Source of the DNA: Shigella phage A2
Direction: 5' to 3' (one strand)
Sequence record: OP197928
Length of the DNA: 64,000 nt
In this document: piece by piece, positions 23,577 to 50,439 of the stretch
Numbering within the stretch: position 1 is the stretch's first letter
Layout of the letters: each line of letters opens with the position of its first letter
Notes under the pieces: model-generated
Databases searched by the model: none
Seen by the model: only the letters and a program-made list of their open reading frames with translations
What the model was told of the DNA's origin: nothing
Translations under genes and position numbers: made by a program

Positions 23577-23606
23577 ACAACACGAGGGACTTGTAAACTA
23601 CATCTT
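23577..23606 (-). promoter_or_regulatory. T4-type early promoter (-35 GTTTAC, -10 TATAGT on minus strand)
   Basis: Plus GTAAAC at 23601..23606 and ACTATA at 23577..23582, 18-bp spacer; nearly identical cassette at 39204..39233. Confidence 0.55.
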
Positions 23607-25655
23607 GAACTTTTTAGACATTCCGTTGATGTTAACCAAAGAAGCCAAGATTTGAGAAACTTCGTTTTTCTCTTCTTTTGATTCTTCTACAAGGAATTGA
23701 TTAAACCCAGCCATTGGACGAACTTCACCAGTTTCCATCAGATGATCGCCATCATATACCGATTCTTCTAATTGTTCAGAAGGAGGAACGATTGTGCCTT
23801 CGATTAGATACTTGTTATAAGCAGTTTCTTTCATCATGTACGTGCTTACTTTATTAATCTTCAACAAAATTCCACGCGGTAAAATAACTTCAGCTTCTGA
23901 TGGAAATCCTGATAAATGACCTGGAACGATAACTTTAATTCGCTCAGCTCCTTTTATTACCATACCTACGCTAGTTTCAGCATCTTCATTAGCATATGCA
24001 GAATGACTGCCCATATGCATTAAATCTTCAGCATCAACAGAACCTTCTCCTTCACCAGAAAATACTGCGCCGGAATCATCTAGAGCCATATAGTTTTTAC
24101 CATGCTCACCGAAGATATTTGGTTTAAGCGATGTTGATACGAAGTTCTTGAAATAAAACATTTTATTTTCAATATTATGACGTAAAGTTTTAAAGGTAAC
24201 TTCTTGTCCACGATAAAGCGTAGTTCCTGGAGGAAGAACTGAACCTTTGGCAAAGGCAGAATCCATTGTCTCGATGTGTTTAATAGCTCGTTCCATGTAT
24301 TCTTCACGGGTAGAATCTGGTTTACCCAAGAGGAACGAGTTCATTTCAACATATGAATCTGCACAATAATCTTCAATTACATCAGACTCAGCCTGAGTCA
24401 GTCCTTTTGGAGTTACTTCGGTGCTTGCGTATTCATATGCCTGAGCAGCAGATTCATTAATCAATTTATAAATGCCATTCATGACAAATTGAATAATAGC
24501 TACCTTTTCGTCTGGCGTGGCTTTAGAACCTTTAACTAAATCATTGATAATTTTCTTAATAACATCAAAGCTATTAGAAATATTAATGTCAGCGAGATCG
24601 CTCAAAATTTTATCGGTTTTATAATCAAAGAATTCTTTATTCTTTAAATATTCTTGAGAACCTTGATATGTTATATCGCTCTGCAGCTTGATAGATGGAT
24701 CACGTAAACGTGCATGGGCCAATGCAATATGATTTCGGAAGCTTTCTAGTTCATAATCATTAGATTTAAAACGAGAAGCACTCCTCATACCACCGATAGC
24801 TCCTTTGCCGAAGTTTGAACCAATCTGAATAACGCCAGAGTTCATTGGTCCTTCTGCTTTATATACCGGAACTTTAGATTCAAACTCTTGATATTTCTTA
24901 GCGGCGAAGCTATCACCCTGAAGTGAAGCATCGACAGTAGAATATTGAGCTTGTGCTGCTAATCGACGACTAATTTTAGTTTTCTGAATAACAGCTTGAT
25001 CCGTGCGCTTATCATTTTCTAGAGCAATAGAAGCGGCAACAGCAACAGCTTTAGGAACAGCATTACCTGTTTTAACGTCTACATAAACATCACCAACCTT
25101 TGATTCAACTTTTGTGAATAACTCAGTTGAAATAGGAGGTACACCTGGAATGTCTTCTAAATTAGCAGTTTTACGATAAACCATAATATATGCATACTTT
25201 TTATCATAGTCCCAGATTTCCTTTAAAAGAACATATCGACCTGCTCCTTTAGTACGTACTAAACGGTCAGCAATAACTTGCATTTGACGAGCAGCGCCAT
25301 TTGTTTTACTTTTTAGTACGCGGAATAGGCATGCGTCAATTTTATACTGTTTCATTGTTTGAAGAGCAGTATCAAAAACCGCATTAATGACACCAATTGG
25401 ATTTCCACCCAAGTTTTTAAGTTTAACTAATGATAGTTTCTCATTAACACCTATCATTACGATATGCATCATTTTATCGCCTGGCTTAACGTTTTTATTT
25501 GTATCACCGCCAGAGGTGTATGTACAAAATCTAAATCCAGGAAGCACACTTTCTTCACCGGCTTGAATAGCAAAAATTTGAGGTATTTTATGCTTAGGAT
25601 TTAAGTTAACAACCGGCGCCGAAGCGCCGTCAAATAATTCTGTAATAAGTTCCAT
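23598..25655 (-). CDS. Alt-family ADP-ribosyltransferase paralog (685 aa)
   Basis: N-terminus MELITELFD...; C-terminal ART signature YRGQ ... FVSTSL ... SEAEVILPRG (R / S-T-S / E-x-E); paralogous to adjacent 698-aa ORF. Confidence 0.85.
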   Translation of the reverse strand: MELITELFDGASAPVVNLNPKHKIPQIFAIQAGEESVLPGFRFCTYTSGGDTNKNVKPGDKMMHIVMIGVNEKLSLVKLKNLGGNPIGVINAVFDTALQTMKQYKIDACLFRVLKSKTNGAARQMQVIADRLVRTKGAGRYVLLKEIWDYDKKYAYIMVYRKTANLEDIPGVPPISTELFTKVESKVGDVYVDVKTGNAVPKAVAVAASIALENDKRTDQAVIQKTKISRRLAAQAQYSTVDASLQGDSFAAKKYQEFESKVPVYKAEGPMNSGVIQIGSNFGKGAIGGMRSASRFKSNDYELESFRNHIALAHARLRDPSIKLQSDITYQGSQEYLKNKEFFDYKTDKILSDLADINISNSFDVIKKIINDLVKGSKATPDEKVAIIQFVMNGIYKLINESAAQAYEYASTEVTPKGLTQAESDVIEDYCADSYVEMNSFLLGKPDSTREEYMERAIKHIETMDSAFAKGSVLPPGTTLYRGQEVTFKTLRHNIENKMFYFKNFVSTSLKPNIFGEHGKNYMALDDSGAVFSGEGEGSVDAEDLMHMGSHSAYANEDAETSVGMVIKGAERIKVIVPGHLSGFPSEAEVILPRGILLKINKVSTYMMKETAYNKYLIEGTIVPPSEQLEESVYDGDHLMETGEVRPMAGFNQFLVEESKEEKNEVSQILASLVNINGMSKKFKM

Positions 25656-25658
25656 GAT

Positions 25659-27755
25659 TTATCCTTGAACGAACTTGTAAGGCATGTTTGCAATATCTAT
25701 GCAAGACGCAATAATTCCAAGAGATGATTCTACTTTTTGTTTAACATTTGATGAAACAAATGATGCAAAGTCAACTCTGTCTTCTATTTCAATATCACCT
25801 GTCATTGTAACTACTTCACCAGTTTCCATTAGACGGTCACCGTCATAAATTACTGATTCGGTGAGTTCTTCCGTAGTCATAACTTCAGCTTGAATGAGTT
25901 TTGTATTATTAGATGTTGTTCCGTCATTATTAGAAGCATCAGTTATTTTATTAACTTTGACCATCAATCCTCGTGGTAGAATAACTTCAGCTTCTGTTGC
26001 TATTCCGAGACTTCCTGGATATACAACATTAACTTTATGAGCTCCATCAATTGCCCATCCTATTTGAACTTTAACGTATTCTGGATTTTCTTTATACGCT
26101 CTTATTTCGTTTGGATTAATAGTTATTCCTTCTTCATTTTTATCAACTGTTAATTCATTACGAGCTTCTGGTTCTAAAAGACCAATGCCAGCATGTGTAA
26201 TTCCAAAACGTCCAAAAATGATAGGAGTTAAAGAAGTAGATACAAAATTTCTGAAATAGAACACTTTATTTTTAACTAGTGCTTCGTATATAGGAGCAGT
26301 CATACTTTGAGCACGATAAACTGTAATGCCTTCTGGTATACGGTCACCATTTTCAAAAGCTGAATCTAAGTTATTTATAGCAGATTCAATTTCTTTTTCA
26401 CTCATTACATCATATCGTTCTGGATTGTAGCGTCCTAAAAGAAGATTATTGATGTCAGTATATCCTGAACCGCAATACTCTCTAATGCCGCGCTTTTGTG
26501 ATGGAGTATATTTAGAACCATCACGGGCAATAGTAATATCAATCATTGGACCTGCACCAATTCCAGAAAAACTATAAATCATTCGTTTGAGGAATTTAGT
26601 TTTTGCTGCGTTCCAGGAATTTTTAGTTATTTCTTCCCAGACTTCATCTGGCTGCCCTTTACGAGTTTTATTATGTTTATCAAGCCAAGTATCTTTATAT
26701 TCTTCAAAGAATTTATTAATAGCTGCTGCATACTTCTCTAAACATTTTATTGAAGTAGTCGGTTCATTTTTAATCGCATTAAGAATTACATCTTTAATTT
26801 TTTCAGAAACTTCATTAACCTCACTTTTTGAAAAGAATTTATAGTCATAATGAAGTTCATCTGCGGTTCCTTCGGCAATAATTTTTGCTGCCTTAGTTTT
26901 AGAAGCTAATGAATTAATTCCAAGTTTCATTTCTTCTGCTTCGGGAATTAAAGGAGCGGTAGCAGGTTTATTGAAATTAGCTGCGGTAGATTCATATTTC
27001 TGGAATAATTCACTTTCAAATCTAGAAGATTCCAATGACTGACTTTGTGCAATTGCTCTACGGGAAATTTTAACTTTAACGATTACAGCTTGGTCAGAAC
27101 GTTTATCATTTTCTTGTGCAATAGATGCTGCAATTGCCTCATTTTTAGTTACTTGAGCTCCAGTATCTTTATTGATATAAACATCGCCGACTTTCGATTC
27201 AACTTTAGTAAAGAGCTCGGTGCTAATTTCCGGAACTCCTGGAATGTCTTCTAGTGATACATTTTTGCGATGTATAAGAATATATGCATACTTTTTATCA
27301 TAATCCCAGAGTTCCTTAAGAAGGACGTATCTGCCACCTGAACGACTGCGGATAAGTCTATCAGCAATAACTTGAATTTGTCGAGCTTGACCAGCAGTTT
27401 TAGACTTAAGAATACGAAGCATACAGGCATCAATTTTATACTGACGCATCGTCTGCATCGCAACAGTAAAAACTGAATTGATGTAATTAATTGGGCTTGG
27501 ACCGAGACCTTTTAATTTAGCAATTGAACCTTTAGCAGTTAATGTAAAAGGAACAATATGCATCATTTTATCGCCCATCTTTAAATCGCGATTAGTATCA
27601 CCTCCAGATGTATAGGTACATAAACGAAAGCCTGGTTGTTCAATTGCGTCATCAACATGAACTGAAAAAATTTGTGGTATTTTCTTCTTTGGATTTAAGT
27701 TTGTAATCGGAAGAGTAGTATCTTCGTCAAATAATTCTGTAATGAGTTCCATCAT
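25659..27755 (-). CDS. alt: Alt ADP-ribosyltransferase (698 aa), packaged internal head protein
   Basis: N-terminus MMELITELFDE...; ART signature YRAQ ... FVSTSL ... TEAEVILPRG; sits next to the DNA ligase gene as alt does in T4; which of the two paralogs is the T4 alt ortholog is not certain. Confidence 0.75.
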   Translation of the reverse strand: MMELITELFDEDTTLPITNLNPKKKIPQIFSVHVDDAIEQPGFRLCTYTSGGDTNRDLKMGDKMMHIVPFTLTAKGSIAKLKGLGPSPINYINSVFTVAMQTMRQYKIDACMLRILKSKTAGQARQIQVIADRLIRSRSGGRYVLLKELWDYDKKYAYILIHRKNVSLEDIPGVPEISTELFTKVESKVGDVYINKDTGAQVTKNEAIAASIAQENDKRSDQAVIVKVKISRRAIAQSQSLESSRFESELFQKYESTAANFNKPATAPLIPEAEEMKLGINSLASKTKAAKIIAEGTADELHYDYKFFSKSEVNEVSEKIKDVILNAIKNEPTTSIKCLEKYAAAINKFFEEYKDTWLDKHNKTRKGQPDEVWEEITKNSWNAAKTKFLKRMIYSFSGIGAGPMIDITIARDGSKYTPSQKRGIREYCGSGYTDINNLLLGRYNPERYDVMSEKEIESAINNLDSAFENGDRIPEGITVYRAQSMTAPIYEALVKNKVFYFRNFVSTSLTPIIFGRFGITHAGIGLLEPEARNELTVDKNEEGITINPNEIRAYKENPEYVKVQIGWAIDGAHKVNVVYPGSLGIATEAEVILPRGLMVKVNKITDASNNDGTTSNNTKLIQAEVMTTEELTESVIYDGDRLMETGEVVTMTGDIEIEDRVDFASFVSSNVKQKVESSLGIIASCIDIANMPYKFVQG

Positions 27756-27791
27756 ATCCTCTCTAGTGTTTATTCTATTTATAAAATTAAA

Positions 27792-27803
27792 GGCCCGAAG
27801 GCC
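27792..27803. other. GC-stem tetraloop hairpin (GGCC-CGAA-GGCC) between gene 30 region and alt
   Basis: Inverted repeat AAAGGCC CGAA GGCCTTT. Confidence 0.4.
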
Positions 27804-27804
27804 T

Positions 27805-27993
27805 TTAATAATCTATTGGTAAGAGAGTACGATATATTTCAAACTTTGGACCTTTTTCATAGGCATCAAATGTTTCTGTGAATTTATTATAAGCATATGC
27901 ATCTATAAATTCAATCATAATTTGTGATACAGAAGTAGAAACATCTCCACCTTCTTTTTGAGCAACGACAATTGTTTCTAAGTAAGCTTTCAT
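27805..27993 (-). CDS. Hypothetical 62-aa protein between ligase and alt
   Basis: ORF overlapping the gene 30 stop by 4 nt; no recognisable motif. Confidence 0.4.
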   Translation of the reverse strand: MKAYLETIVVAQKEGGDVSTSVSQIMIEFIDAYAYNKFTETFDAYEKGPKFEIYRTLLPIDY

Positions 27994-29453
27994 AGACCAG
28001 TTACCTCATGAAAATCACCAAATACATCCTCGAATGTATTAGCTTTAGTTTTATCTTCACGTAAACGAATCGCAATTGGAAGAAATAATTTTACGTAATC
28101 AGTGCGGCCATCAGATTTTAACCAACCATTGCATTCGCACTCTAGAATTTTTCCAATATAATAATTTTGGTTTTCCATAATGCGAGTACGGTCAAGTTCA
28201 TGTGATTTTACGCCGGCTTTATCTTTTAAGCCTGAACCAGCATTTACTTTAATTTTTCCACACTCTGATTCAAGAATAAATCCACCTGCTTTAGTAGGGT
28301 CTTTACGGTGAGGATAAATTCCTACAATTTTTAAATCAACATCAATTACTTCTTTAAATTTATAGAGATTTTTTGAACGAGCATTTTCCCACAATCCATC
28401 GGTATTTTTGAGAATAATACCTTCAAGACCTTGGTCAATATACTTTTTATAAATTACCTTAGCTTCATCTAGGTTATTTACTACCTGGTTTTCAATTAAA
28501 ATTACTTTATCATATCCTGATGTCATTTGTTCTAGTTTAGAAAAACGTACATCATATTTTAAACGAAACGCCGGAAGACCGTATATTTCTACCAACGGGA
28601 CATAATCCCAGACCTGAAACTTCATGCATTCGGCTTCTTTTTCGGAAATGGTTCCTTTTAAGGATTTATTGGCGATTCCATTAGAAGCAGTACGAGATTC
28701 CGCTACTTCGGCGAATTCTTTAGCTTTACTAATTTCAGGATAAGCATCAAAAAGAAAATCTAGGCCTTCTGGTTCCTTTTTAACTTGCTCATGGTATACC
28801 AATTCGCCATCAATTAACACACCTTCTGGATGAATCTGGCGGGCTTCAGCAGTCATTTTGATTAATTCTTCCTTAAGAAGATCTAATCCTAGATATTCAT
28901 TACCAGCTCGTGATAAAAGACGAACATCATCTAATTCATCGCCTCGGACTTCAGCAAAACACCGAGCTCCATCTGCTTTTAACTGTGCAAAGGCTGGAAA
29001 TTTGATATTCTTATTAATGCCTTTTTCATCATAAGAACTTGCCAGCATTTGAGGTTGTTCAGGAATTAAACCTGGCCAAACTTTGTTTGCAATAGATACT
29101 GAAGCACCGCATTCAAGGTCTCGCATCATCACTCGACGCAAAACTTCAACATCATCCTTTTTACCATCGGTGATATATCCAGTCAATTCCTCAATTGCAG
29201 CATTTCCGGTCAATTTCCGAGTAGCTAACGTGAATTCAATGAAGTCAAGCATATCGGTAATGGTCAGCATTCCAAAACTCTGGGTAGCAATACCAGGTTT
29301 AGGCCATTTCTTGATATAATACTGTAACCCACGAGAATAAGTCAGACGATATACCCGTTTAAGCAATTCATTATCTTTATTCTTTTCAAGAATTGCTTGC
29401 TTCTGCTTAGTTGATCCAATAGATGCTATTTCATTCAGAATTTTAAGAATCAT
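27990..29453 (-). CDS. 30: ATP-dependent DNA ligase gp30
   Basis: 487 aa; adenylation lysine motif (KADGAR); near-identical to recalled T4 DNA ligase. Confidence 0.97.
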   Translation of the reverse strand: MILKILNEIASIGSTKQKQAILEKNKDNELLKRVYRLTYSRGLQYYIKKWPKPGIATQSFGMLTITDMLDFIEFTLATRKLTGNAAIEELTGYITDGKKDDVEVLRRVMMRDLECGASVSIANKVWPGLIPEQPQMLASSYDEKGINKNIKFPAFAQLKADGARCFAEVRGDELDDVRLLSRAGNEYLGLDLLKEELIKMTAEARQIHPEGVLIDGELVYHEQVKKEPEGLDFLFDAYPEISKAKEFAEVAESRTASNGIANKSLKGTISEKEAECMKFQVWDYVPLVEIYGLPAFRLKYDVRFSKLEQMTSGYDKVILIENQVVNNLDEAKVIYKKYIDQGLEGIILKNTDGLWENARSKNLYKFKEVIDVDLKIVGIYPHRKDPTKAGGFILESECGKIKVNAGSGLKDKAGVKSHELDRTRIMENQNYYIGKILECECNGWLKSDGRTDYVKLFLPIAIRLREDKTKANTFEDVFGDFHEVTGL

Positions 29454-29719
29454 TGCTCATCCTTCAAAGTTTGGTTTACAGCTCTATTATAAATCAATTC
29501 ATCATTAAGCTCAGGCAAAGACTTATGATATGTAGTTCTAACTTTATTTCCTTGCATCCAGTGCTTGATATAAATGAAACCTTGCTCTACACATTTTTTA
29601 AAAATTCGTTCGTCTTTTTGAGCTCGGAATTCTGGATTGCATCTAAAAAATTGATTTACGTGACCGTAATCACGTGTAGTATTACCTTCATTTTCATAAA
29701 TAGTGTGAACGACAAACAT
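29450..29719 (-). CDS. Hypothetical protein (T4 30.1 position)
   Basis: 89-aa ORF, translationally coupled. Confidence 0.5.
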   Translation of the reverse strand: MFVVHTIYENEGNTTRDYGHVNQFFRCNPEFRAQKDERIFKKCVEQGFIYIKHWMQGNKVRTTYHKSLPELNDELIYNRAVNQTLKDEQ

Positions 29720-30582
29720 TAGAATGCTCCTTGGAAAATATTATCACCACTAGTAAATCTATTAAAATACCCTGCATCACCAGGCTTAGTATAACTCCAC
29801 GTATGGAATGGATTCATATGATACGGGTGTGTATAATATGGATTATATGGATGTGTATAATATGGATTATACGGATTAAATCCAGGAGTTCTCCAGGTAG
29901 TGTTCCAACGAAAAGAATCGTTTTTAACCATCTTCTCAATTACATCTTTTATAGCTTTTTCACTATCAAAACTTTCTTTATTTTCCTTCGGTGAAAAAAG
30001 CTTATTTTCTACATCATTCCATGTATAAACTCGCTGAGCGGTTTTTGGAATATTGTCACGCTCTCCTCGCGCCATCCAATAAACAGGAACATTTAATATT
30101 TCACTCGCATGATCGCAGTGGTGAGCAAGATCGTCAATATAACAAATTACGTTATATTTCTCTTTTGCCTTTTTGAATAACTCTTCTTTTGAAGAATCAT
30201 GACCACACATCATTACTTCTGAGAAGGCACCAGGAAAAAGAGCATTCAAATTAAATTGACGATTCAACAGAGCGTCAATAGAATCACCCAACGCTGTAAC
30301 AGCTACAAAATTATAATCTTCTTTTAATTTGTTAATTACGCACAGGGCGTCTTTATATGGAGACAAATAACGAATAAAATCTGAACGATTGTATTTTTCA
30401 ATTAACTTGACGCCAAGTTCTTCATCACAATTAAAGAGTTTACCCGGAGAAATAAATTTCTCATCTTGGATCATTTTTAAAATATGTTCTAACGGAAGAT
30501 TATATTTCTGAGCAAAATAAGGAAGGCCTGATTGCCAGCTTAAACATACTCCATCAATATCAGTTAAAATAGTAGGCTTCAT
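29719..30582 (-). CDS. HAD-superfamily-like hydrolase with C-terminal Tyr/Pro-rich repeat tail (T4 30.2 position)
   Basis: 287 aa; N-terminal ILTDIDGV (HAD motif I, DxDG); C-terminal NPYNPYYTHPYNPYYTHPYHMNPF. Confidence 0.6.
   Translation of the reverse strand: MKPTILTDIDGVCLSWQSGLPYFAQKYNLPLEHILKMIQDEKFISPGKLFNCDEELGVKLIEKYNRSDFIRYLSPYKDALCVINKLKEDYNFVAVTALGDSIDALLNRQFNLNALFPGAFSEVMMCGHDSSKEELFKKAKEKYNVICYIDDLAHHCDHASEILNVPVYWMARGERDNIPKTAQRVYTWNDVENKLFSPKENKESFDSEKAIKDVIEKMVKNDSFRWNTTWRTPGFNPYNPYYTHPYNPYYTHPYHMNPFHTWSYTKPGDAGYFNRFTSGDNIFQGAF
29825..29872. repeat. Perfect-to-near-perfect 24-bp tandem duplication inside the HAD-like ORF
   Basis: GGGTGTGTATAATATGGATTATAT / GGATGTGTATAATATGGATTATAC, encoding the YNPYYTHP repeat on minus strand. 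Confidence 0.8.
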
Positions 30583-31043
30583 AGAGAGTCTCTTAATAGA
30601 TTTAACACATCAATAAATTCAGCTTCGGTTAGTATTGTATCATCTTTTGTTAGACCACTAGCCATGCTGTGCTTCAAAACTTTTCCTTTCGAGGCTTGTA
30701 ATGCATCGCGAAAGCCCTTGTTTTGGAACGCTGCTTCAAAATATGCATTTGTGTATAATTCTTTCCATGCTTCGGAATATCTTGAAAACGGAGTTCCAAG
30801 CCAGAACAACGTGCCACGGTCCTGAGCTCTAGCATAAGCTCGTCCAGCTTGTTGGGCGGCAAGCCCGGATAACCCAAATATACGACGCTGTTGTTCAACA
30901 TTTTTCACCTTGCATCCTTGGAGGAATCCTTCGAGACCTCCAAATTGGATACCGTCCATAACAAAAGGCCATTGGGCGAAATTACTTAATGCACATGATG
31001 GCCATCTAAAATTGCTTCTAATCTCTAGCTCAGACATTTTCAA
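30579..31043 (-). CDS. NADAR / YbiA-like (DUF1768) domain protein (T4 30.3 position)
   Basis: 154 aa; ALSNFAQWPFVMDGIQFGGLEGFLQGCK parallels the recalled E. coli YbiA core DFSNFAAWPIKVDGKTWPTSEHYFQAQK, plus downstream W and LKH segments. Confidence 0.6.
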   Translation of the reverse strand: MKMSELEIRSNFRWPSCALSNFAQWPFVMDGIQFGGLEGFLQGCKVKNVEQQRRIFGLSGLAAQQAGRAYARAQDRGTLFWLGTPFSRYSEAWKELYTNAYFEAAFQNKGFRDALQASKGKVLKHSMASGLTKDDTILTEAEFIDVLNLLRDSL

Positions 31044-31245
31044 TACTTATAATTTCAACATCAGCCCAATGACCATAACTTGGTAAACGGTCTTCAATAG
31101 ATAATCCGCCATCATATTTAAGCATTTTAATTGTCATAATATATGGCTCTAAATGGTCTTCAGTGAGCGGAGAGACATCAGTCACACGATAAGTAACTTC
31201 GACCATTTCCGTGCCCAGTAATTTCTGGATTAATTTCTTAAACAT
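31030..31245 (-). CDS. Hypothetical protein
   Basis: 71-aa ORF in the 30.x cluster. Confidence 0.45.
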   Translation of the reverse strand: MFKKLIQKLLGTEMVEVTYRVTDVSPLTEDHLEPYIMTIKMLKYDGGLSIEDRLPSYGHWADVEIISIENV

Positions 31246-31249
31246 TTTA

Positions 31250-31537
31250 TTAAAATCTCATCTGAAAACCGTGTGATTTAACATTACCGCCGCCGATATC
31301 AGAAATGTTAATTTCACGCGCAATTGAAGGGTCAATGTCAATTTCACGATTAAGTTTAGTGATAGCTAAAGTATCGCGGCCATTTACAGTACGGAACTCT
31401 AAAGGGCAGACTACATTAACGTAGTTTTTAATTGATTCACTGGTAGGTTGCAAATGAGCAGGAAGGTCTTTAGGTGCCTTAGAGAAAACCACTTCACAGA
31501 AATTTTTGCGGGTATCAAAATAAGTAGTCATAAACAT
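31250..31537 (-). CDS. Hypothetical protein
   Basis: 95-aa ORF in the 30.x cluster. Confidence 0.5.
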   Translation of the reverse strand: MFMTTYFDTRKNFCEVVFSKAPKDLPAHLQPTSESIKNYVNVVCPLEFRTVNGRDTLAITKLNREIDIDPSIAREINISDIGGGNVKSHGFQMRF

Positions 31538-31554
31538 AGTATTTTCCTCAGTAA

Positions 31555-31580
31555 GGGGCCGAAGCCCCTCATTTTATTTT
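31555..31580 (+). other. GC hairpin with plus-strand T-run (GGGGC-CGAA-GCCCC then TCATTTTATTTT)
   Basis: Terminator-like geometry oriented for the plus strand inside a minus-strand gene cluster. Confidence 0.4.
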
Positions 31581-31944
31581 AAATATCAAATTCGTTAAGA
31601 ACTACATCAAAGATTGCTTCAAGATGCTCAGGTTTAGCTCTGTTACTCAAAATATGACGAATCCAAGTTTTAACCAGAAGCTTGCGATTAACGCCATTCC
31701 AGCAAGGATGAGTCCCTAAATCGCGTTGACGAAAATCATCATCCAAAGCGATTTTAAAAGAAGAACCTTCTTTCGTGATTGAAACCGTGATGCCATTTTC
31801 AAATCGCATATAAACGTAGTTAGGAGTCATATACTGTTCAATTTCGCATACTGATCCATTTTGATGTTTCCAAAGGCAGATAGTATCAATAGAACCTGCA
31901 ATACCGTTAGAAACATATTTACGTTCAAAGTTGATGTAGTTCAT
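31579..31944 (-). CDS. Hypothetical protein
   Basis: 121-aa ORF preceded by an early-promoter-like element. Confidence 0.5.
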   Translation of the reverse strand: MNYINFERKYVSNGIAGSIDTICLWKHQNGSVCEIEQYMTPNYVYMRFENGITVSITKEGSSFKIALDDDFRQRDLGTHPCWNGVNRKLLVKTWIRHILSNRAKPEHLEAIFDVVLNEFDI

Positions 31945-31981
31945 TTTTATTCTCCGAGATGTTTAATTGCGGTACAGGTAT

Positions 31982-32010
31982 ATAATATCATATCCTGTAC
32001 CAAAGTAAAC
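31982..32010 (-). promoter_or_regulatory. T4-type early promoter (-35 GTTTAC, -10 TATTAT)
   Basis: Plus GTAAAC 32005..32010 and ATAATA 31982..31987, 17-bp spacer. Confidence 0.5.
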
Positions 32011-32014
32011 TATT

Positions 32015-32383
32015 TTATGCAACTTTAATCCAATTATCTAAATTTAATTCACCTTTGGCTTTCATTTTTTCAATCAAAAGATCAGCGGTAATACGACCAT
32101 TTTGATACCATGTAACATCTTCAGAGTAACCAGTTTCTTTATCTTCATAAGTCTCACAACGAATTTTACCAATAATCAAAGTTTTCAATTCGTATGTATC
32201 TCCAGTAAAAAAGTTAGTTAACATTATTTTCCAAGAGAAATCATCAGAAGGACCTTCAGGAGTCATGCAACCTACAAATTCAAATTGTTCTTTGTATAAG
32301 TGCCACTGAAGTTCTTTAGTTTCGATAGCTTTATAGCCGTCGTGGTCTTTACCTTTGATGTATGAGTTAAGATTGATTTTCAT
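32015..32383 (-). CDS. Hypothetical protein
   Basis: 122-aa ORF. Confidence 0.5.
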   Translation of the reverse strand: MKINLNSYIKGKDHDGYKAIETKELQWHLYKEQFEFVGCMTPEGPSDDFSWKIMLTNFFTGDTYELKTLIIGKIRCETYEDKETGYSEDVTWYQNGRITADLLIEKMKAKGELNLDNWIKVA

Positions 32384-32410
32384 TTTATTCTCCTTTGTTT
32401 GTGTAAGATA

Positions 32411-32440
32411 ATACTATCACAAAGGAACCATACTGTAAAC
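32411..32440 (-). promoter_or_regulatory. T4-type early promoter (-35 GTTTAC, -10 TAGTAT)
   Basis: Plus GTAAAC 32435..32440 and ATACTA 32411..32416, 18-bp spacer. Confidence 0.5.
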
Positions 32441-32460
32441 AACTTTGTGCAATCTTTGGA

Positions 32461-32488
32461 AAATAAAAAAGGACTCCCGAAGGAGTCC
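32461..32488 (-). terminator. Intrinsic terminator (GGACUCC-UUCG-GGAGUCC then UUUUUUAUUU on minus strand)
   Basis: 7-bp GC stem with tetraloop, followed on minus strand by a T6 run. Confidence 0.75.
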
Positions 32489-32493
32489 TCAAC

Positions 32494-32670
32494 TTATGCT
32501 TTCTGCTTACCAAAACGAGAAGCATCATCTCGAAGAACCGCACGTGCTCGGCGCATGATCTTCTCAACAGTTTGATTGATACGAGAGTTCGACCCACGCT
32601 TGTAACCAGCGCGTTTAGAATCACCAACTTTCTTTTCAACTGCTTTCTTTGCTTTAGCTTGTTTTGCCAT
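32494..32670 (-). CDS. Small highly basic protein (T4 30.9 region)
   Basis: Lys/Arg-rich 58 aa from ATG 32670 (ORF track extends to 32712); overlapping 84-aa alternative frame judged less likely. Confidence 0.4.
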   Translation of the reverse strand: MAKQAKAKKAVEKKVGDSKRAGYKRGSNSRINQTVEKIMRRARAVLRDDASRFGKQKA

Positions 32671-32864
32671 TATAAATTCTCTTTTAAATGAAAATGCAGG
32701 ACTTATTGGCATTGCCTGCGAAAGCCCTCAAGGGGTACTTAGGTTTTGAATATTTACCGACAGGATAACCATAAACCTCGTCAACATTCAAGAGGTACAC
32801 CGTAAAACAAAGTTCGACGGCTCCTCGTTTTAACTTCACACTAAGGCAGTGACTCTCCAATAAA

Positions 32865-33113
32865 TTACTTCAGTGTTACCACAAAGTGACGAACTGCTTT
32901 TCGTGCAGCAGAAGCCAGAGGCTTAGCATATTTAAGTTCATCTTTTTCCTGAAGCTCAGCAGCTAATGCAGTTTGAGCAGGATTCAGATGTTTGAAATAA
33001 CGCAGGATTTCAAGAGCTTCGGCTTCAACATCAATAGATGCGCCATAGTTTTCGTGACCATTATTCCATGCGTTTCGTTGCAGTTCAAGAGCGTGTTGTA
33101 ATTGTTTAATCAT
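32865..33113 (-). CDS. rIII: rIII lysis inhibition accessory protein
   Basis: 82 aa, T4 rIII size, adjacent to gene 31. Confidence 0.8.
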   Translation of the reverse strand: MIKQLQHALELQRNAWNNGHENYGASIDVEAEALEILRYFKHLNPAQTALAAELQEKDELKYAKPLASAARKAVRHFVVTLK

Positions 33114-49450: not shown

Positions 49451-50104
49451 TTAATACTTGCAAGATTTCACAGTTTCAATGAAAACTTTTTTAGCTTCCT
49501 GTGAATCGATATTTAAAATTTTTCTATAAGCCTTTAACTTTATAGAATAATTATTCCAGACTAAATTATCAGTCTGTTCATCATGTTTATCGATTATATT
49601 TAAAAACGAATCAAGCAAGATAAACGTCTCAAACGAAATTATATTCGATTGCAGAAGTTTAAAAATATAACTTGATTGAACTTTTGGATTATACTCAAAG
49701 ATTTCTTTAAAAGCAGAAACTTCAACTTTTTTACTAAAATAATAAATGTTGCGAATATCTTCTTCAAACTTAAATTTAATTTGCTTTAAGCGTCCGATAT
49801 ATTCACGATAAAACACAAGTGCATCAGCGTCAGAGATGTCACCAATCCAAGCATCTTGGTTAGCAACAAGATTGCTTATAAAGATTAAAGCAAGTTCCTT
49901 TAATTTATATTTTTCTGATAACTTCTGGAAAAAATACTTATCCCTTCGCTTTTGATAAGCGGCATCAGACACCCGCATGCACCAATTATACTTAATTACA
50001 TCATACTTTCCATTCATATGTTGTTTTATCATTAAGTATAATTTATAAACTGATTTACCATCAATATATCTTTCACCACCAGCAGGCATGCGGAGTTTAA
50101 TCAT
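49451..50104 (-). CDS. 59: Helicase loader gp59
   Basis: 217 aa, matches T4 gp59. Confidence 0.95.
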   Translation of the reverse strand: MIKLRMPAGGERYIDGKSVYKLYLMIKQHMNGKYDVIKYNWCMRVSDAAYQKRRDKYFFQKLSEKYKLKELALIFISNLVANQDAWIGDISDADALVFYREYIGRLKQIKFKFEEDIRNIYYFSKKVEVSAFKEIFEYNPKVQSSYIFKLLQSNIISFETFILLDSFLNIIDKHDEQTDNLVWNNYSIKLKAYRKILNIDSQEAKKVFIETVKSCKY

Positions 50105-50439
50105 AGTAGAAAATCTAATGTATTAGTTTTTTCACAACGAACAACAGAAGGACGTAAAAGATTTTCGTCAATAGCTTCTGACTGAATTTTTTCAATTATA
50201 CCCGAAGGAATAAATTTAGCAAATTGAGTTTCAGGAATAGAATTTTCTTCCAAGAATGCTGTTGTAGCTTCAAGATAACTCATTCCAAACTCTTCTACCA
50301 TTTTTTCAATAATAAATCCATTTTCTTGGCGGTCAAGAAGCTTTGCAATTTCATCCTTTTCTTTCTTAATTGAAAGTTCTTTTTCTGAAAGCCCGGCCTC
50401 ATCGACCGGGCGAATATCATTTAGAGAAAACTGTGTCAT
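50101..50439 (-). CDS. 33: Late transcription accessory protein gp33
   Basis: ORF to 50448; start set at MTQFSLNDIRP... (112 aa) by recalled T4 gp33. Confidence 0.9.
   Translation of the reverse strand: MTQFSLNDIRPVDEAGLSEKELSIKKEKDEIAKLLDRQENGFIIEKMVEEFGMSYLEATTAFLEENSIPETQFAKFIPSGIIEKIQSEAIDENLLRPSVVRCEKTNTLDFLL

What the first reader, a model, noticed from the sequence alone, without database searches (positions are those of the whole stretch)
29719..30582. HAD-like hydrolase ORF ending in a tandemly duplicated Tyr/Pro-rich tail
The N-terminus ILTDIDGV is a canonical HAD-superfamily motif I (DxDG nucleophile). The C-terminal about 40 aa is low-complexity (NPYNPYYTHPYNPYYTHPYHMNPF), generated by a 24-bp tandem duplication at 29825..29872. 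A phosphatase or nucleotidase next to DNA ligase with a recently duplicated aromatic-rich tail is unusual; the tail could mediate protein or nucleic-acid binding, and the repeat number may vary between isolates.
Basis: seen in the sequence. Interest (0 to 1): 0.45.

Follow-up and report, generated by a model that had tools for sequence, protein, structure and literature searches.

The report
T4 gene 30.2 phosphatase, variable tail
This is the T4-type phage gene 30.2, a long-catalogued but uncharacterised HAD-family phosphatase that looks most like a nucleotidase. Its odd Tyr/Pro-rich ending is a fast-evolving, disordered tail in which a 24-bp slippage duplication is one common natural allele, so the finding is real but fairly ordinary.

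Summary
ORF 29719-30582 (minus strand, 287 aa) exists. It carries all four HAD motifs (D8/D10, T96, K132, D150/D151). It contains a 24-bp tandem duplication (2 mismatches, both synonymous) that encodes PYNPYYTH twice.

The window is a Tequatrovirus (T4-like) genome and the ORF is the orthologue of T4 gene 30.2. It lies in the translationally coupled string 30.3 (AdfN NADAR) - 30.2 - 30.1 - 30 (DNA ligase).

The AlphaFold model is confident for residues 1-195 and shows a C1-capped HAD fold. Its nearest characterised relatives are the NT5C-type 5'(3')-deoxyribonucleotidases. Residues 221-287 are predicted disordered.

The duplication is not an artefact. The two-copy junction is found in 60 phage records, and phage D5505 carries the exact one-copy version of the same haplotype. 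Across Tequatrovirus alleles the protein is 278-287 aa long, with at least 6 indel sites in the tail, all in frame. The tail evolves much faster than the core.

More distant relatives lack the tail or carry unrelated Pro/aromatic tails that end in short conserved motifs. The gene sits next to the DNA ligase gene in every lineage examined.

The substrate and the role of the tail remain untested. Some GenBank records already annotate the gene as a HAD hydrolase or deoxyribonucleotidase. Interest is low to moderate.

The parts
29719..30582 (-). Gene 30.2 orthologue, 287 aa (stop codon 29719-29721). It is a HAD-superfamily phosphatase with a C-terminal tail.
   Evidence: ORF list; phrog_420 E=3e-89; 623 phage records match by megablast, Tequatrovirus records annotate it as 30.2.
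29992..30582 (-). HAD catalytic core plus cap, residues 1-197.
30547..30561 (-). HAD motif I, D8-I-D10-G-V. D8 is the predicted nucleophile and D10 the predicted general acid/base.
   Evidence: D8 and D10 are invariant in 80 homologues. The stretch aligns to DGVLADFESGL of mouse cdN, PDB 2jao.
30358..30537 (-). C1 cap, a helical insertion at residues about 16-75 that includes the invariant W16, S18, Y64 and S67.
   Evidence: Predicted helices 16-26, 32-40, 46-49, 54-65 and 68-72 lie between motif I and strand 91-96. Conservation.
30289..30309 (-). HAD motif II, FVAVTAL (T96).
   Evidence: T96 is at least 90% conserved and A97 is invariant.
30187..30189 (-). HAD motif III, lysine K132.
   Evidence: Invariant in both the 80-sequence and the 145-sequence alignments.
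30130..30135 (-). HAD motif IV, D150-D151 (YIDDL), the predicted Mg2+ ligands.
   Evidence: Invariant in A1. Codons GAC GAT read directly from the sequence.
29923..29964 (-). Isolated helix, residues 207-220, at the start of the tail.
   Evidence: DSSP helix 207-220; mean pLDDT about 86 for residues 211-220.
29722..29922 (-). Predicted disordered Pro/Tyr/Phe/Trp/His/Asn-rich tail, residues 221-287.
   Evidence: Mean pLDDT is 58-60 for residues 221-250 and below 50 for 254-287. Within the genus the last ~59 residues (from about 229) are 60-93% identical at the aa level against 96-99.6% for everything upstream. The tail is absent from most distant relatives.
29827..29874 (-). 24-bp tandem duplication, in-frame copies 29851-29874 and 29827-29850, each encoding PYNPYYTH.
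   Evidence: TRF; sequence; two-copy junction in 60 records and a one-copy allele in phage D5505.
29803..29826 (-). Degenerate third unit, PYHMNPFH. It begins with the same CCGTAT as copy 1, which is the microhomology available for slippage.
   Evidence: Sequence.
29752..29781 (-). GDAGYFNRFT, a diverged version of the G-x-(I/L)-E-Y-L-x-N/Q-x-P-T motif found near the C-terminus of many tailed homologues.
   Evidence: Tail survey: the motif occurs in 17 tailed homologues from several genera. T4-type alleles read GGIEYLYNRPT.
29722..29748 (-). C-terminal GDNIFQGAF.
   Evidence: NIFQGAF is identical in all 13 Tequatrovirus alleles compared. The full nine residues are identical in 12; SHFML-11 reads ANNIFQGAF.
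30579..31037 (-). Upstream neighbour, gene 30.3 = AdfN (anti-DarT NADAR), 152 aa. Its stop codon overlaps the 30.2 start (ATGA).
   Evidence: Pfam Phage_30_3 E=1.5e-68. Function from PMC11825919. Overlap read from the sequence.
29450..29719 (-). Downstream neighbour, gene 30.1 (DUF3045), 89 aa. Its ATG overlaps the 30.2 stop codon (TAATG).
   Evidence: Pfam DUF3045 E=2e-63. Sequence.
27990..29453 (-). Gene 30, ATP-dependent DNA ligase, 487 aa. Its start overlaps the 30.1 stop codon.
   Evidence: ORF list. Annotated as DNA ligase in related records.

Best explanation
The ORF is the orthologue of bacteriophage T4 gene 30.2 and has two parts.

(1) Residues 1-197 form a Mg2+-dependent HAD phosphatase with a C1 helical cap. 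By analogy with the superfamily, D8 would attack the substrate phosphate to form an aspartyl-phosphate. D10 would act as the general acid/base. T96 and K132 would hold the phosphoryl group, and D150/D151 would hold Mg2+. The cap closes over a small substrate. The closest characterised relatives are the NT5C-type 5'(3')-deoxyribonucleotidases, so the substrate is most likely a nucleoside monophosphate. The residues and the fold are shown here. The catalysis and the substrate are inferred.

(2) Residues 198-287 form a lineage-specific extension: a linker, one short helix, and then an intrinsically disordered stretch rich in Pro and aromatic residues. This tail evolves quickly by in-frame slippage indels. 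The 24-bp duplication (PYNPYYTH twice) is one such event. It probably arose by slipped-strand mispairing between the CCGTAT repeats that flank the unit, and it is now a common allele. The frame and the last residues are always kept, and related genera conserve a short motif near the end. The tail is therefore most likely a flexible tether that carries a short docking motif for an unknown partner, and the Tyr/Pro repeats act mainly as a spacer of variable length (inferred).

The gene is co-transcribed and translationally coupled with 30.3 (AdfN), 30.1 and the DNA ligase gene.
For: Identity: phrog_420 E=3e-89. There are 623 matching phage records, almost all from T4-like phages of Escherichia, Shigella and Yersinia. 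Tequatrovirus records annotate the gene as 30.2, between 30.3 and 30.1/30.

NT5C-like: the best target-normalised TM-scores are to cdN, mdN and 3bwv (0.63-0.70). The A1 profile's only PDB sequence hit of any weight is cdN 2jao (E=0.04), and it aligns DxDGVxxxW-x-SGL with DGVLADFESGL. The wider A2 profile hits 3bwv, a putative 5'(3')-deoxyribonucleotidase, at E=6.8e-7. Of 145 family representatives, 48 hit Pfam NT5C (best E=4e-10), against 24 for Hydrolase, 22 for HAD_2 and 1 for HAD_PNKP. Structural neighbours among viral proteins are annotated as 5' nucleotidase or deoxyribonucleotidase.

Tail: pLDDT is below 50 for residues 254-287. Tail lengths in the family run from 0 to more than 100 aa, and about half of the members scanned have no tail. 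Twelve Tequatrovirus alleles show at least 6 indel sites, all multiples of 3, and keep the C-terminal NIFQGAF. Tail aa identity is 60-93% against 96-99.6% for the core.

Duplication: the 2-copy junction is in 60 records. The 1-copy allele in D5505 differs at only 19 of 840 nt once one copy is removed. CCGTAT flanks the unit.

Motif: G-x-I-E-Y-L-x-x-Q-P-T recurs in 17 tailed homologues from different genera, although the linkers before it cannot be aligned.

Operon: the stop and start codons overlap at 30.3/30.2, 30.2/30.1 and 30.1/30.

Against: A dNMP phosphatase has no obvious place in T4 nucleotide economy, because the phage recycles host dNMPs (my own knowledge).

In this window's allele the putative docking motif is degraded (GDAGYFNRFT versus GGIEYLYNRPT). 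Within the genus, tail aa identity is lower than tail nt identity. Both facts fit relaxed constraint as well as they fit a functional motif. No partner was identified, and no paper on the function of 30.2 was found.
Confidence: 0.6

Rival explanations
1. gp30.2 is a nucleic-acid end-healing enzyme. On this view it is a PNKP-like 3'-phosphatase that removes 3'-phosphates at nicks so that the ligase encoded next door can seal them, and the aromatic tail binds DNA.
For: The gene lies immediately upstream of the DNA ligase gene, with 0-1 small ORFs between, in Tequatrovirus, in Acinetobacter, Shewanella, Klebsiella, Erwinia and Salmonella phages and in phage UGJNEcP4. In a more distant phage it lies two ORFs from the ligase gene. 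There is a weak match to the PHROG polynucleotide-kinase family (phrog_415, E=0.0012, residues 74-177). Some polynucleotide kinase/phosphatases appear among the viral structural neighbours.
Against: A roughly 60-residue C1 cap covers the active site. HADs that act on macromolecules, such as PNKP and the CTD phosphatases, are typically capless (established knowledge of the superfamily). Only 1 of 145 family representatives touches Pfam HAD_PNKP, against 48 for NT5C. These phages already encode a PNK with a HAD_PNKP domain nearby. Gene order is broadly conserved in T4-like genomes, so adjacency is weak evidence of a shared function.
Confidence: 0.1
2. gp30.2 is a HAD phosphatase, or another kind of HAD hydrolase, that acts on a small molecule other than a nucleotide, such as a sugar phosphate, a cofactor intermediate or an ADP-ribose-derived metabolite.
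Against: The Asp at the nucleophile+2 position (D10) is typical of phosphatases rather than dehalogenases (established knowledge). The only sequence-level links that favour one characterised subfamily are to NT5C. The flap motif W16-x-S18-G-L aligns with F-E-S-G-L of cdN, PDB 2jao. I recall that the corresponding Phe in the related mdN/cdN enzymes lies near the substrate sugar; this was not checked.
Confidence: 0.2
3. The Tyr/Pro repeat is itself the functional element. On this view it is an array of NPY/NPF-like motifs whose copy number tunes binding to a host or phage partner, and it is kept variable by diversifying selection in the manner of a contingency locus.
For: Repeat length varies among otherwise nearly identical alleles: 1 versus 2 copies of the 24-bp unit, plus 3-, 6- and 9-bp variants. 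Tail aa identity is lower than tail nt identity, whereas the reverse holds in the core. All indels keep the reading frame.
Against: The repeat region is not conserved outside Tequatrovirus. Many relatives with a 74-77% identical core have no tail at all. Frame preservation is equally explained by a need to keep only the C-terminal end. No partner is known.
Confidence: 0.08
4. The duplication is a sequencing or assembly artefact.
For: Short tandem repeats can be mis-assembled.
Against: The identical two-copy junction occurs in 60 independently deposited genomes from several countries and hosts. These include diverged versions such as AV121, which is 93.9% identical over the junction query. The two copies have themselves diverged at two positions.
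Confidence: 0.01

Closest known systems
Bacteriophage T4 gene 30.2 product (PHROG 420; NCBI CDD PHA02597 '30.2', as quoted in a GenBank note)
   Same: Same gene. The synteny is the same (30.3 - 30.2 - 30.1 - 30), the sequence is 91% identical to the representative of the 279-aa cluster that holds the T4-type alleles, and the HAD core is the same.
   Different: The tail allele differs. T4-type proteins are 279 aa and read ...NPYNHLYHPYQTHPFQTWNYIKPGGIEYLYNRPTSGDNIFQGAF. The window allele is 287 aa, carries PYNPYYTH twice, and reads GDAGYFNRFT in place of GGIEYLYNRPT.
NT5C family 5'(3')-deoxyribonucleotidases (human and mouse cdN and mdN; S. epidermidis 3bwv; Pfam PF06941)
   Same: C1-capped HAD fold of about 190 residues. 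The four motifs are present, including DxDGV, and an aromatic-x-SGL flap motif follows motif I. These proteins are the best sequence-profile and TM-score matches.
   Different: Only 14-21% identity. The query does not reach the Pfam NT5C threshold or even E<=1. The solved NT5C-family chains are 168-207 residues long, so they have no comparable C-terminal extension. The substrate is unknown.
T4 polynucleotide kinase/3'-phosphatase (PseT) phosphatase domain
   Same: A phage-encoded HAD phosphatase from the same genomic region, associated with ligases. There is a weak PHROG hit.
   Different: As I recall, the PNKP phosphatase domain has no comparable cap and acts on polynucleotide 3' ends (not checked here). 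gp30.2 has a 60-residue cap and no kinase domain.
Phage-induced dNMP nucleotidases, such as the dTMP phosphohydrolase of PBS2 and the T5 Dmp 5'-deoxyribonucleotidase (from memory, not checked here)
   Same: They are a precedent for phages encoding nucleotide monophosphatases that reshape dNTP pools.
   Different: No sequence comparison was made here. T4 is not known to need such an activity.

Membership tests
HAD superfamily (phosphatase type) | Motif I DxD with Asp at nucleophile+2 | tested here: met
   D8-I-D10-G-V. Both Asp residues are invariant in 80 homologues.
HAD superfamily (phosphatase type) | Motif II Ser/Thr at the end of strand 2 | tested here: met
   T96 in FVAVTAL, at least 90% conserved, at the end of predicted strand 91-96.
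HAD superfamily (phosphatase type) | Motif III Lys/Arg | tested here: met
   K132 is invariant in A1 and in the 145-sequence A2.
HAD superfamily (phosphatase type) | Motif IV acidic pair (DD or DxxxD) | tested here: met
   D150-D151 are invariant in A1, at the end of strand 145-150.
HAD superfamily (phosphatase type) | Rossmannoid core fold with a cap insertion | tested here: met
HAD superfamily (phosphatase type) | Mg2+-dependent phosphoryl transfer through an aspartyl-phosphate | not testable with these tools
   Needs an enzyme assay.
HAD superfamily (phosphatase type) | Match to a curated HAD profile (Pfam Hydrolase, HAD_2) | tested here: not met
   The query has no Pfam hit at E<=1 and no NCBIfam hit at E<=10. 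Distant family members do hit Hydrolase and HAD_2.
NT5C 5'(3')-deoxyribonucleotidase family (PF06941) | Score above the Pfam gathering threshold | tested here: not met
   The query has no hit. Of 145 family representatives, 48 hit at E<=0.01, best 4.2e-10. The three that were scanned individually scored 17.8-22.5 bits against a cut-off of 24.8.
NT5C 5'(3')-deoxyribonucleotidase family (PF06941) | Detectable homology to solved NT5C structures | tested here: inconclusive
   A1 profile versus cdN 2jao gives E=0.04. A2 profile versus 3bwv gives E=6.8e-7, and versus mdN and cdN gives E=0.08-0.3. Structural TM-scores normalised to the target are 0.63-0.70.
NT5C 5'(3')-deoxyribonucleotidase family (PF06941) | Dephosphorylation of 5'- or 3'-dNMPs | not testable with these tools
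   Needs an enzyme assay.
PNKP-type polynucleotide 3'-phosphatase (HAD_PNKP) | Capless (C0) HAD domain accessible to polynucleotide ends | tested here: not met
   A helical cap of about 60 residues lies between motif I and motif II.
PNKP-type polynucleotide 3'-phosphatase (HAD_PNKP) | Match to the HAD_PNKP profile | tested here: not met
   The query has no hit. One of 145 relatives hits at E=0.003. The phrog_415 hit is only E=0.0012.
T4 gene 30.2 orthologous group | Sequence match and position between 30.3 and 30.1/30 | tested here: met
   phrog_420 E=3e-89. Flanked by Phage_30_3 and DUF3045. Related records annotate it as 30.2.

The most novel reading that the evidence does not exclude
gp30.2 may be a phage counter-defence or replisome-associated nucleotidase whose disordered tail carries a short docking motif (G-x-I-E-Y-L-x-N/Q-x-P-T in the T4 type). 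The motif would recruit it to a partner. One candidate partner is the neighbouring, translationally coupled AdfN (gp30.3); the authors who characterised AdfN infer an unidentified T-even 'potentiating factor' for it. Another candidate is the sliding clamp, whose known ligands, such as gp33 in this window, end in TLDFLL. Once recruited, the enzyme could destroy nucleotide-derived danger signals such as dNMPs released by host DNA breakdown. On this view the rapid turnover of the tail would reflect an arms race.
Probability: 0.07. Interest if true: 0.7.

Novelty: already known. Interest (0 to 1): 0.22.

Why it matters
Gene 30.2 is one of the roughly 100 T4 genes that still have no assigned function (the figure comes from PMC11825919). 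It is conserved next to the DNA ligase gene across very divergent T4-like phages, and it sits directly after the recently characterised anti-DarT gene adfN. Showing that it is an intact, NT5C-like, capped HAD phosphatase with an optional, fast-evolving tail gives a concrete biochemical hypothesis to test: nucleotide phosphatase activity, and a partner for the tail. The duplicated Tyr/Pro tail itself is only a common length allele, so it adds little beyond a clear example of slippage-driven evolution in a disordered region.

Tried and rejected
1. Curated family searches with the query found nothing (Pfam, NCBIfam). A single-sequence search of PDB sequences gave only a chance hit at E=1.6.

2. 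Seven literature searches for gp30.2 or 30.2 found no paper on its function. Two further attempts failed on term length. The only relevant paper concerns the neighbouring gene 30.3 (AdfN). A preprint on a bacterial PUA-Cal-HAD defence system does not mention 30.2.

3. I tested whether having a tail correlates with having gene 30.1. It does not: UGJNEcP4 has a tail-less HAD together with 30.1, and the Klebsiella and Erwinia phages have tails but no Pfam-recognisable DUF3045 in the small ORF that follows.

4. I tested whether the long C-terminal region of the phiR1-RT homologue (P0067) is a fused 30.1. BLASTP finds no similarity. P0014, however, is a genuine 30.2::DUF3045 fusion.

5. The plus-strand ORF at 29731-29994 (87 aa, TTG start) is rejected as a shadow of the repeat. 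The differences between the two copies are synonymous only in the minus-strand frame.

6. Promoter and terminator scans were at chance level, and there were no Rfam hits in 27000-33000.

7. The afdb50 fold library was unavailable.

8. A look-up of distant representatives returned no names or taxonomy. I therefore could not establish whether the roughly 1300-cluster wider family is phage-only.

Full report
**What is there.** The window is part of a Tequatrovirus (T4-like) genome. A megablast search with the ORF finds 623 phage records, almost all from phages of Escherichia, Shigella and Yersinia, and the best match is 99.8% identical.

The ORF at 29719-30582 (minus strand, 287 aa, 33.6 kDa) lies between a Phage_30_3 protein (30579-31037) and a DUF3045 protein (29450-29719). 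The 487-aa DNA ligase gene follows at 27990-29453. Related records annotate the same gene as 30.2, and it matches PHROG 420 at E=3e-89.

The stop and start codons of 30.3/30.2 (ATGA), 30.2/30.1 (TAATG) and 30.1/30 overlap. The four genes therefore form one translationally coupled string. No promoter or terminator signal above chance and no Rfam family lies in the region.

**The repeat.** Tandem Repeats Finder reports a 24-bp period at 29821-29876, 2.3 copies, 90% matches. In frame, the copies are 29851-29874 and 29827-29850. Both encode PYNPYYTH and they differ at two synonymous positions. A degenerate third unit, PYHMNPFH, follows.

The repeat is not an artefact. An 82-nt query across the junction finds 60 phage records, 57 of them at 95% identity or more, from several hosts and countries. 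Phage AV121 carries a diverged copy of the same duplication.

Phage D5505 carries the exact one-copy version of the same haplotype. It is 279 aa and differs at 19 of 840 nt once one copy is removed from the window sequence. In D5505 the unit is flanked by CCGTAT on both sides, which is the microhomology expected for slipped-strand duplication. This is an inference from the sequence.

**The tail as a whole.** Thirteen Tequatrovirus alleles were compared and are 278-287 aa long. A DNA alignment of twelve of them shows at least six separate indel sites in the last 190 bp. They include the 24-bp unit, variants of 3, 6 and 9 bp, and a TAGTGG duplication that gives SGSG. All are multiples of three. 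The C-terminal NIFQGAF is the same in all alleles.

Against the window allele, the core is 94-97.5% identical at the nt level and 96-99.6% at the aa level. The tail is only 69-94% (nt) and 60-93% (aa) identical. The tail is therefore translated and kept in frame, but it evolves far faster than the enzyme.

AlphaFold2, run with an 80-sequence alignment, gives pLDDT of 93-98 for residues 1-190. It predicts an isolated helix at 207-220 and gives pLDDT below 50 for residues 254-287.

Outside the genus, homologues with a 74-77% identical core have no tail at all and are 196-212 aa long. Other genera carry Pro/Trp/Tyr-rich tails that cannot be aligned with this one. An exhaustive profile search finds 1309 clusters at 50% identity, and most of the 150 best-scoring clusters listed are 190-215 aa, which is core only.

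The tails nevertheless end in a few recurrent short motifs: G-x-I-E-Y-L-x-x-Q-P-T (17 proteins), L-R/K-A-Y-Y (14) and D-Y-x-L-L-N (5). T4-type alleles read GGIEYLYNRPT. The window allele reads GDAGYFNRFT at the same place.

**The enzyme.** In the 80-sequence alignment D8, D10, K132, D150 and D151 are invariant, and T96 is at least 90% conserved. All four HAD motifs are therefore present. K132 stays invariant, and D8, D10 and D151 stay at least 90% conserved, in a 145-sequence alignment that reaches down to 21-30% identity.

At the sequence level the query matches no Pfam or NCBIfam model. The family profile's best PDB hit is mouse cdN (E=0.04), and the alignment places DxDGVxxxW-x-SGL on DGVLADFESGL. 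The broader profile hits 3bwv at E=6.8e-7. Of 145 family representatives, 48 match Pfam NT5C, with a best E of 4e-10. That compares with 24 for Hydrolase, 22 for HAD_2 and 1 for HAD_PNKP. Viral structural neighbours are annotated as 5' nucleotidase or deoxyribonucleotidase. A few GenBank, JGI and UniRef entries already name this protein 'haloacid dehalogenase-like hydrolase' or '5'(3')-deoxyribonucleotidase'.

I conclude that the ORF encodes an intact, capped HAD phosphatase from a divergent branch allied to NT5C. The substrate is probably a nucleoside monophosphate, but this is inferred and not shown.

**Context.** The gene is directly upstream of the ligase gene, with 0 or 1 small ORF between, in an Acinetobacter phage, a Shewanella phage, Escherichia phage UGJNEcP4, a Klebsiella phage, an Erwinia phage and a Salmonella phage. 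In a more distant phage it lies two ORFs from the ligase gene. Gene 30.3 is present in only some of these.

Gene 30.3 has been shown to be AdfN, a NADAR DNA ADP-ribosylglycohydrolase that counters DarTG1. Its authors note that T-even phages probably encode another factor needed for full AdfN activity (PMC11825919). One metagenomic homologue, P0014, is a 30.2::DUF3045 fusion. These observations are suggestive only, because gene order in T4-like genomes is broadly conserved anyway.

**Rivals.** A PNKP-like end-healing role beside the ligase fits the conserved adjacency and a weak PHROG hit. The cap and the profile statistics argue against it. A small-molecule substrate other than a nucleotide cannot be excluded on structure. 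The idea that the repeat is itself a tunable binding array fits the length polymorphism and the pattern of aa identity falling below nt identity. It does not fit the absence of the repeat outside the genus. An assembly artefact is excluded.

**Verdict.** The object is the known, uncharacterised T4 gene 30.2. The duplicated tail is a common natural allele of a hypervariable, disordered C-terminal extension. Novelty is low. The remaining interest lies in the untested substrate, the unknown partner of the tail, and the conserved linkage to the DNA ligase gene (and, in some lineages, to adfN).

Noticed in passing
window 30579-31037 (-): The upstream gene is a full-length (152 aa) 30.3/AdfN, the anti-DarT NADAR ADP-ribosylglycohydrolase described in PMC11825919. 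That paper ties DarTG1 sensitivity of RB69 to a frameshift that truncates this gene, so this phage would be predicted to resist DarTG1. In phage UGJNEcP4 (L026) the 30.3 homologue is only 91 aa.
   Followed up: partly
window 23598-25655 (-) and 25659-27755 (-): Two adjacent large ORFs of 685 and 698 aa both begin MELITELFD. They look like tandem paralogues of the Alt ADP-ribosyltransferase. I did not check their domains or compare them with each other.
   Followed up: no
P0014 (Logan contig, 1378 nt); compare window 29450-30582: One metagenomic homologue is a single 302-aa protein in which a tail-less 30.2 HAD core is fused to a DUF3045 (30.1) domain (Pfam E=8e-15). This hints that 30.2 and 30.1 work together. 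I did not check whether the fusion is real or a frameshift error.
   Followed up: partly
L011, L012, L014 (ECML-134, REP1, T2), aligned to window about 29740-29750: A second small tandem duplication, TAGTGG giving SGSG, is present near the C-terminus in some alleles and absent from the window allele.
   Followed up: yes
window 50101-50439 (-): The gp33 homologue ends in TLDFLL. From memory this is the sliding-clamp-binding tail motif. The I-E-Y-L-Y segment in T4-type 30.2 tails has a loosely similar pattern, but it is not at the C-terminus.
   Followed up: no
L016 (MZ375356, mutant T4 clone T4_583L): In this genome-reduced T4 mutant the annotated 30.2 CDS covers only the last 110 codons, so the HAD core is disrupted. 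This suggests the gene is dispensable under laboratory conditions. I did not examine the sequence.
   Followed up: no
cluster of P0001: The 90%-identity protein cluster that holds the T4-type 30.2 proteins also lists 152-aa gp30.3/AdfN proteins as members. This looks like a clustering artefact, possibly caused by read-through ORFs that bridge the two overlapping genes.
   Followed up: no
P0153 (591 aa), P0201 (660 aa), P0103 (430 aa), P0144 (365 aa): A few distant relatives carry the HAD domain fused to large regions that have no Pfam match. In P0153 and P0201 the extra region is N-terminal. In P0103 and P0144 it is C-terminal.
   Followed up: partly
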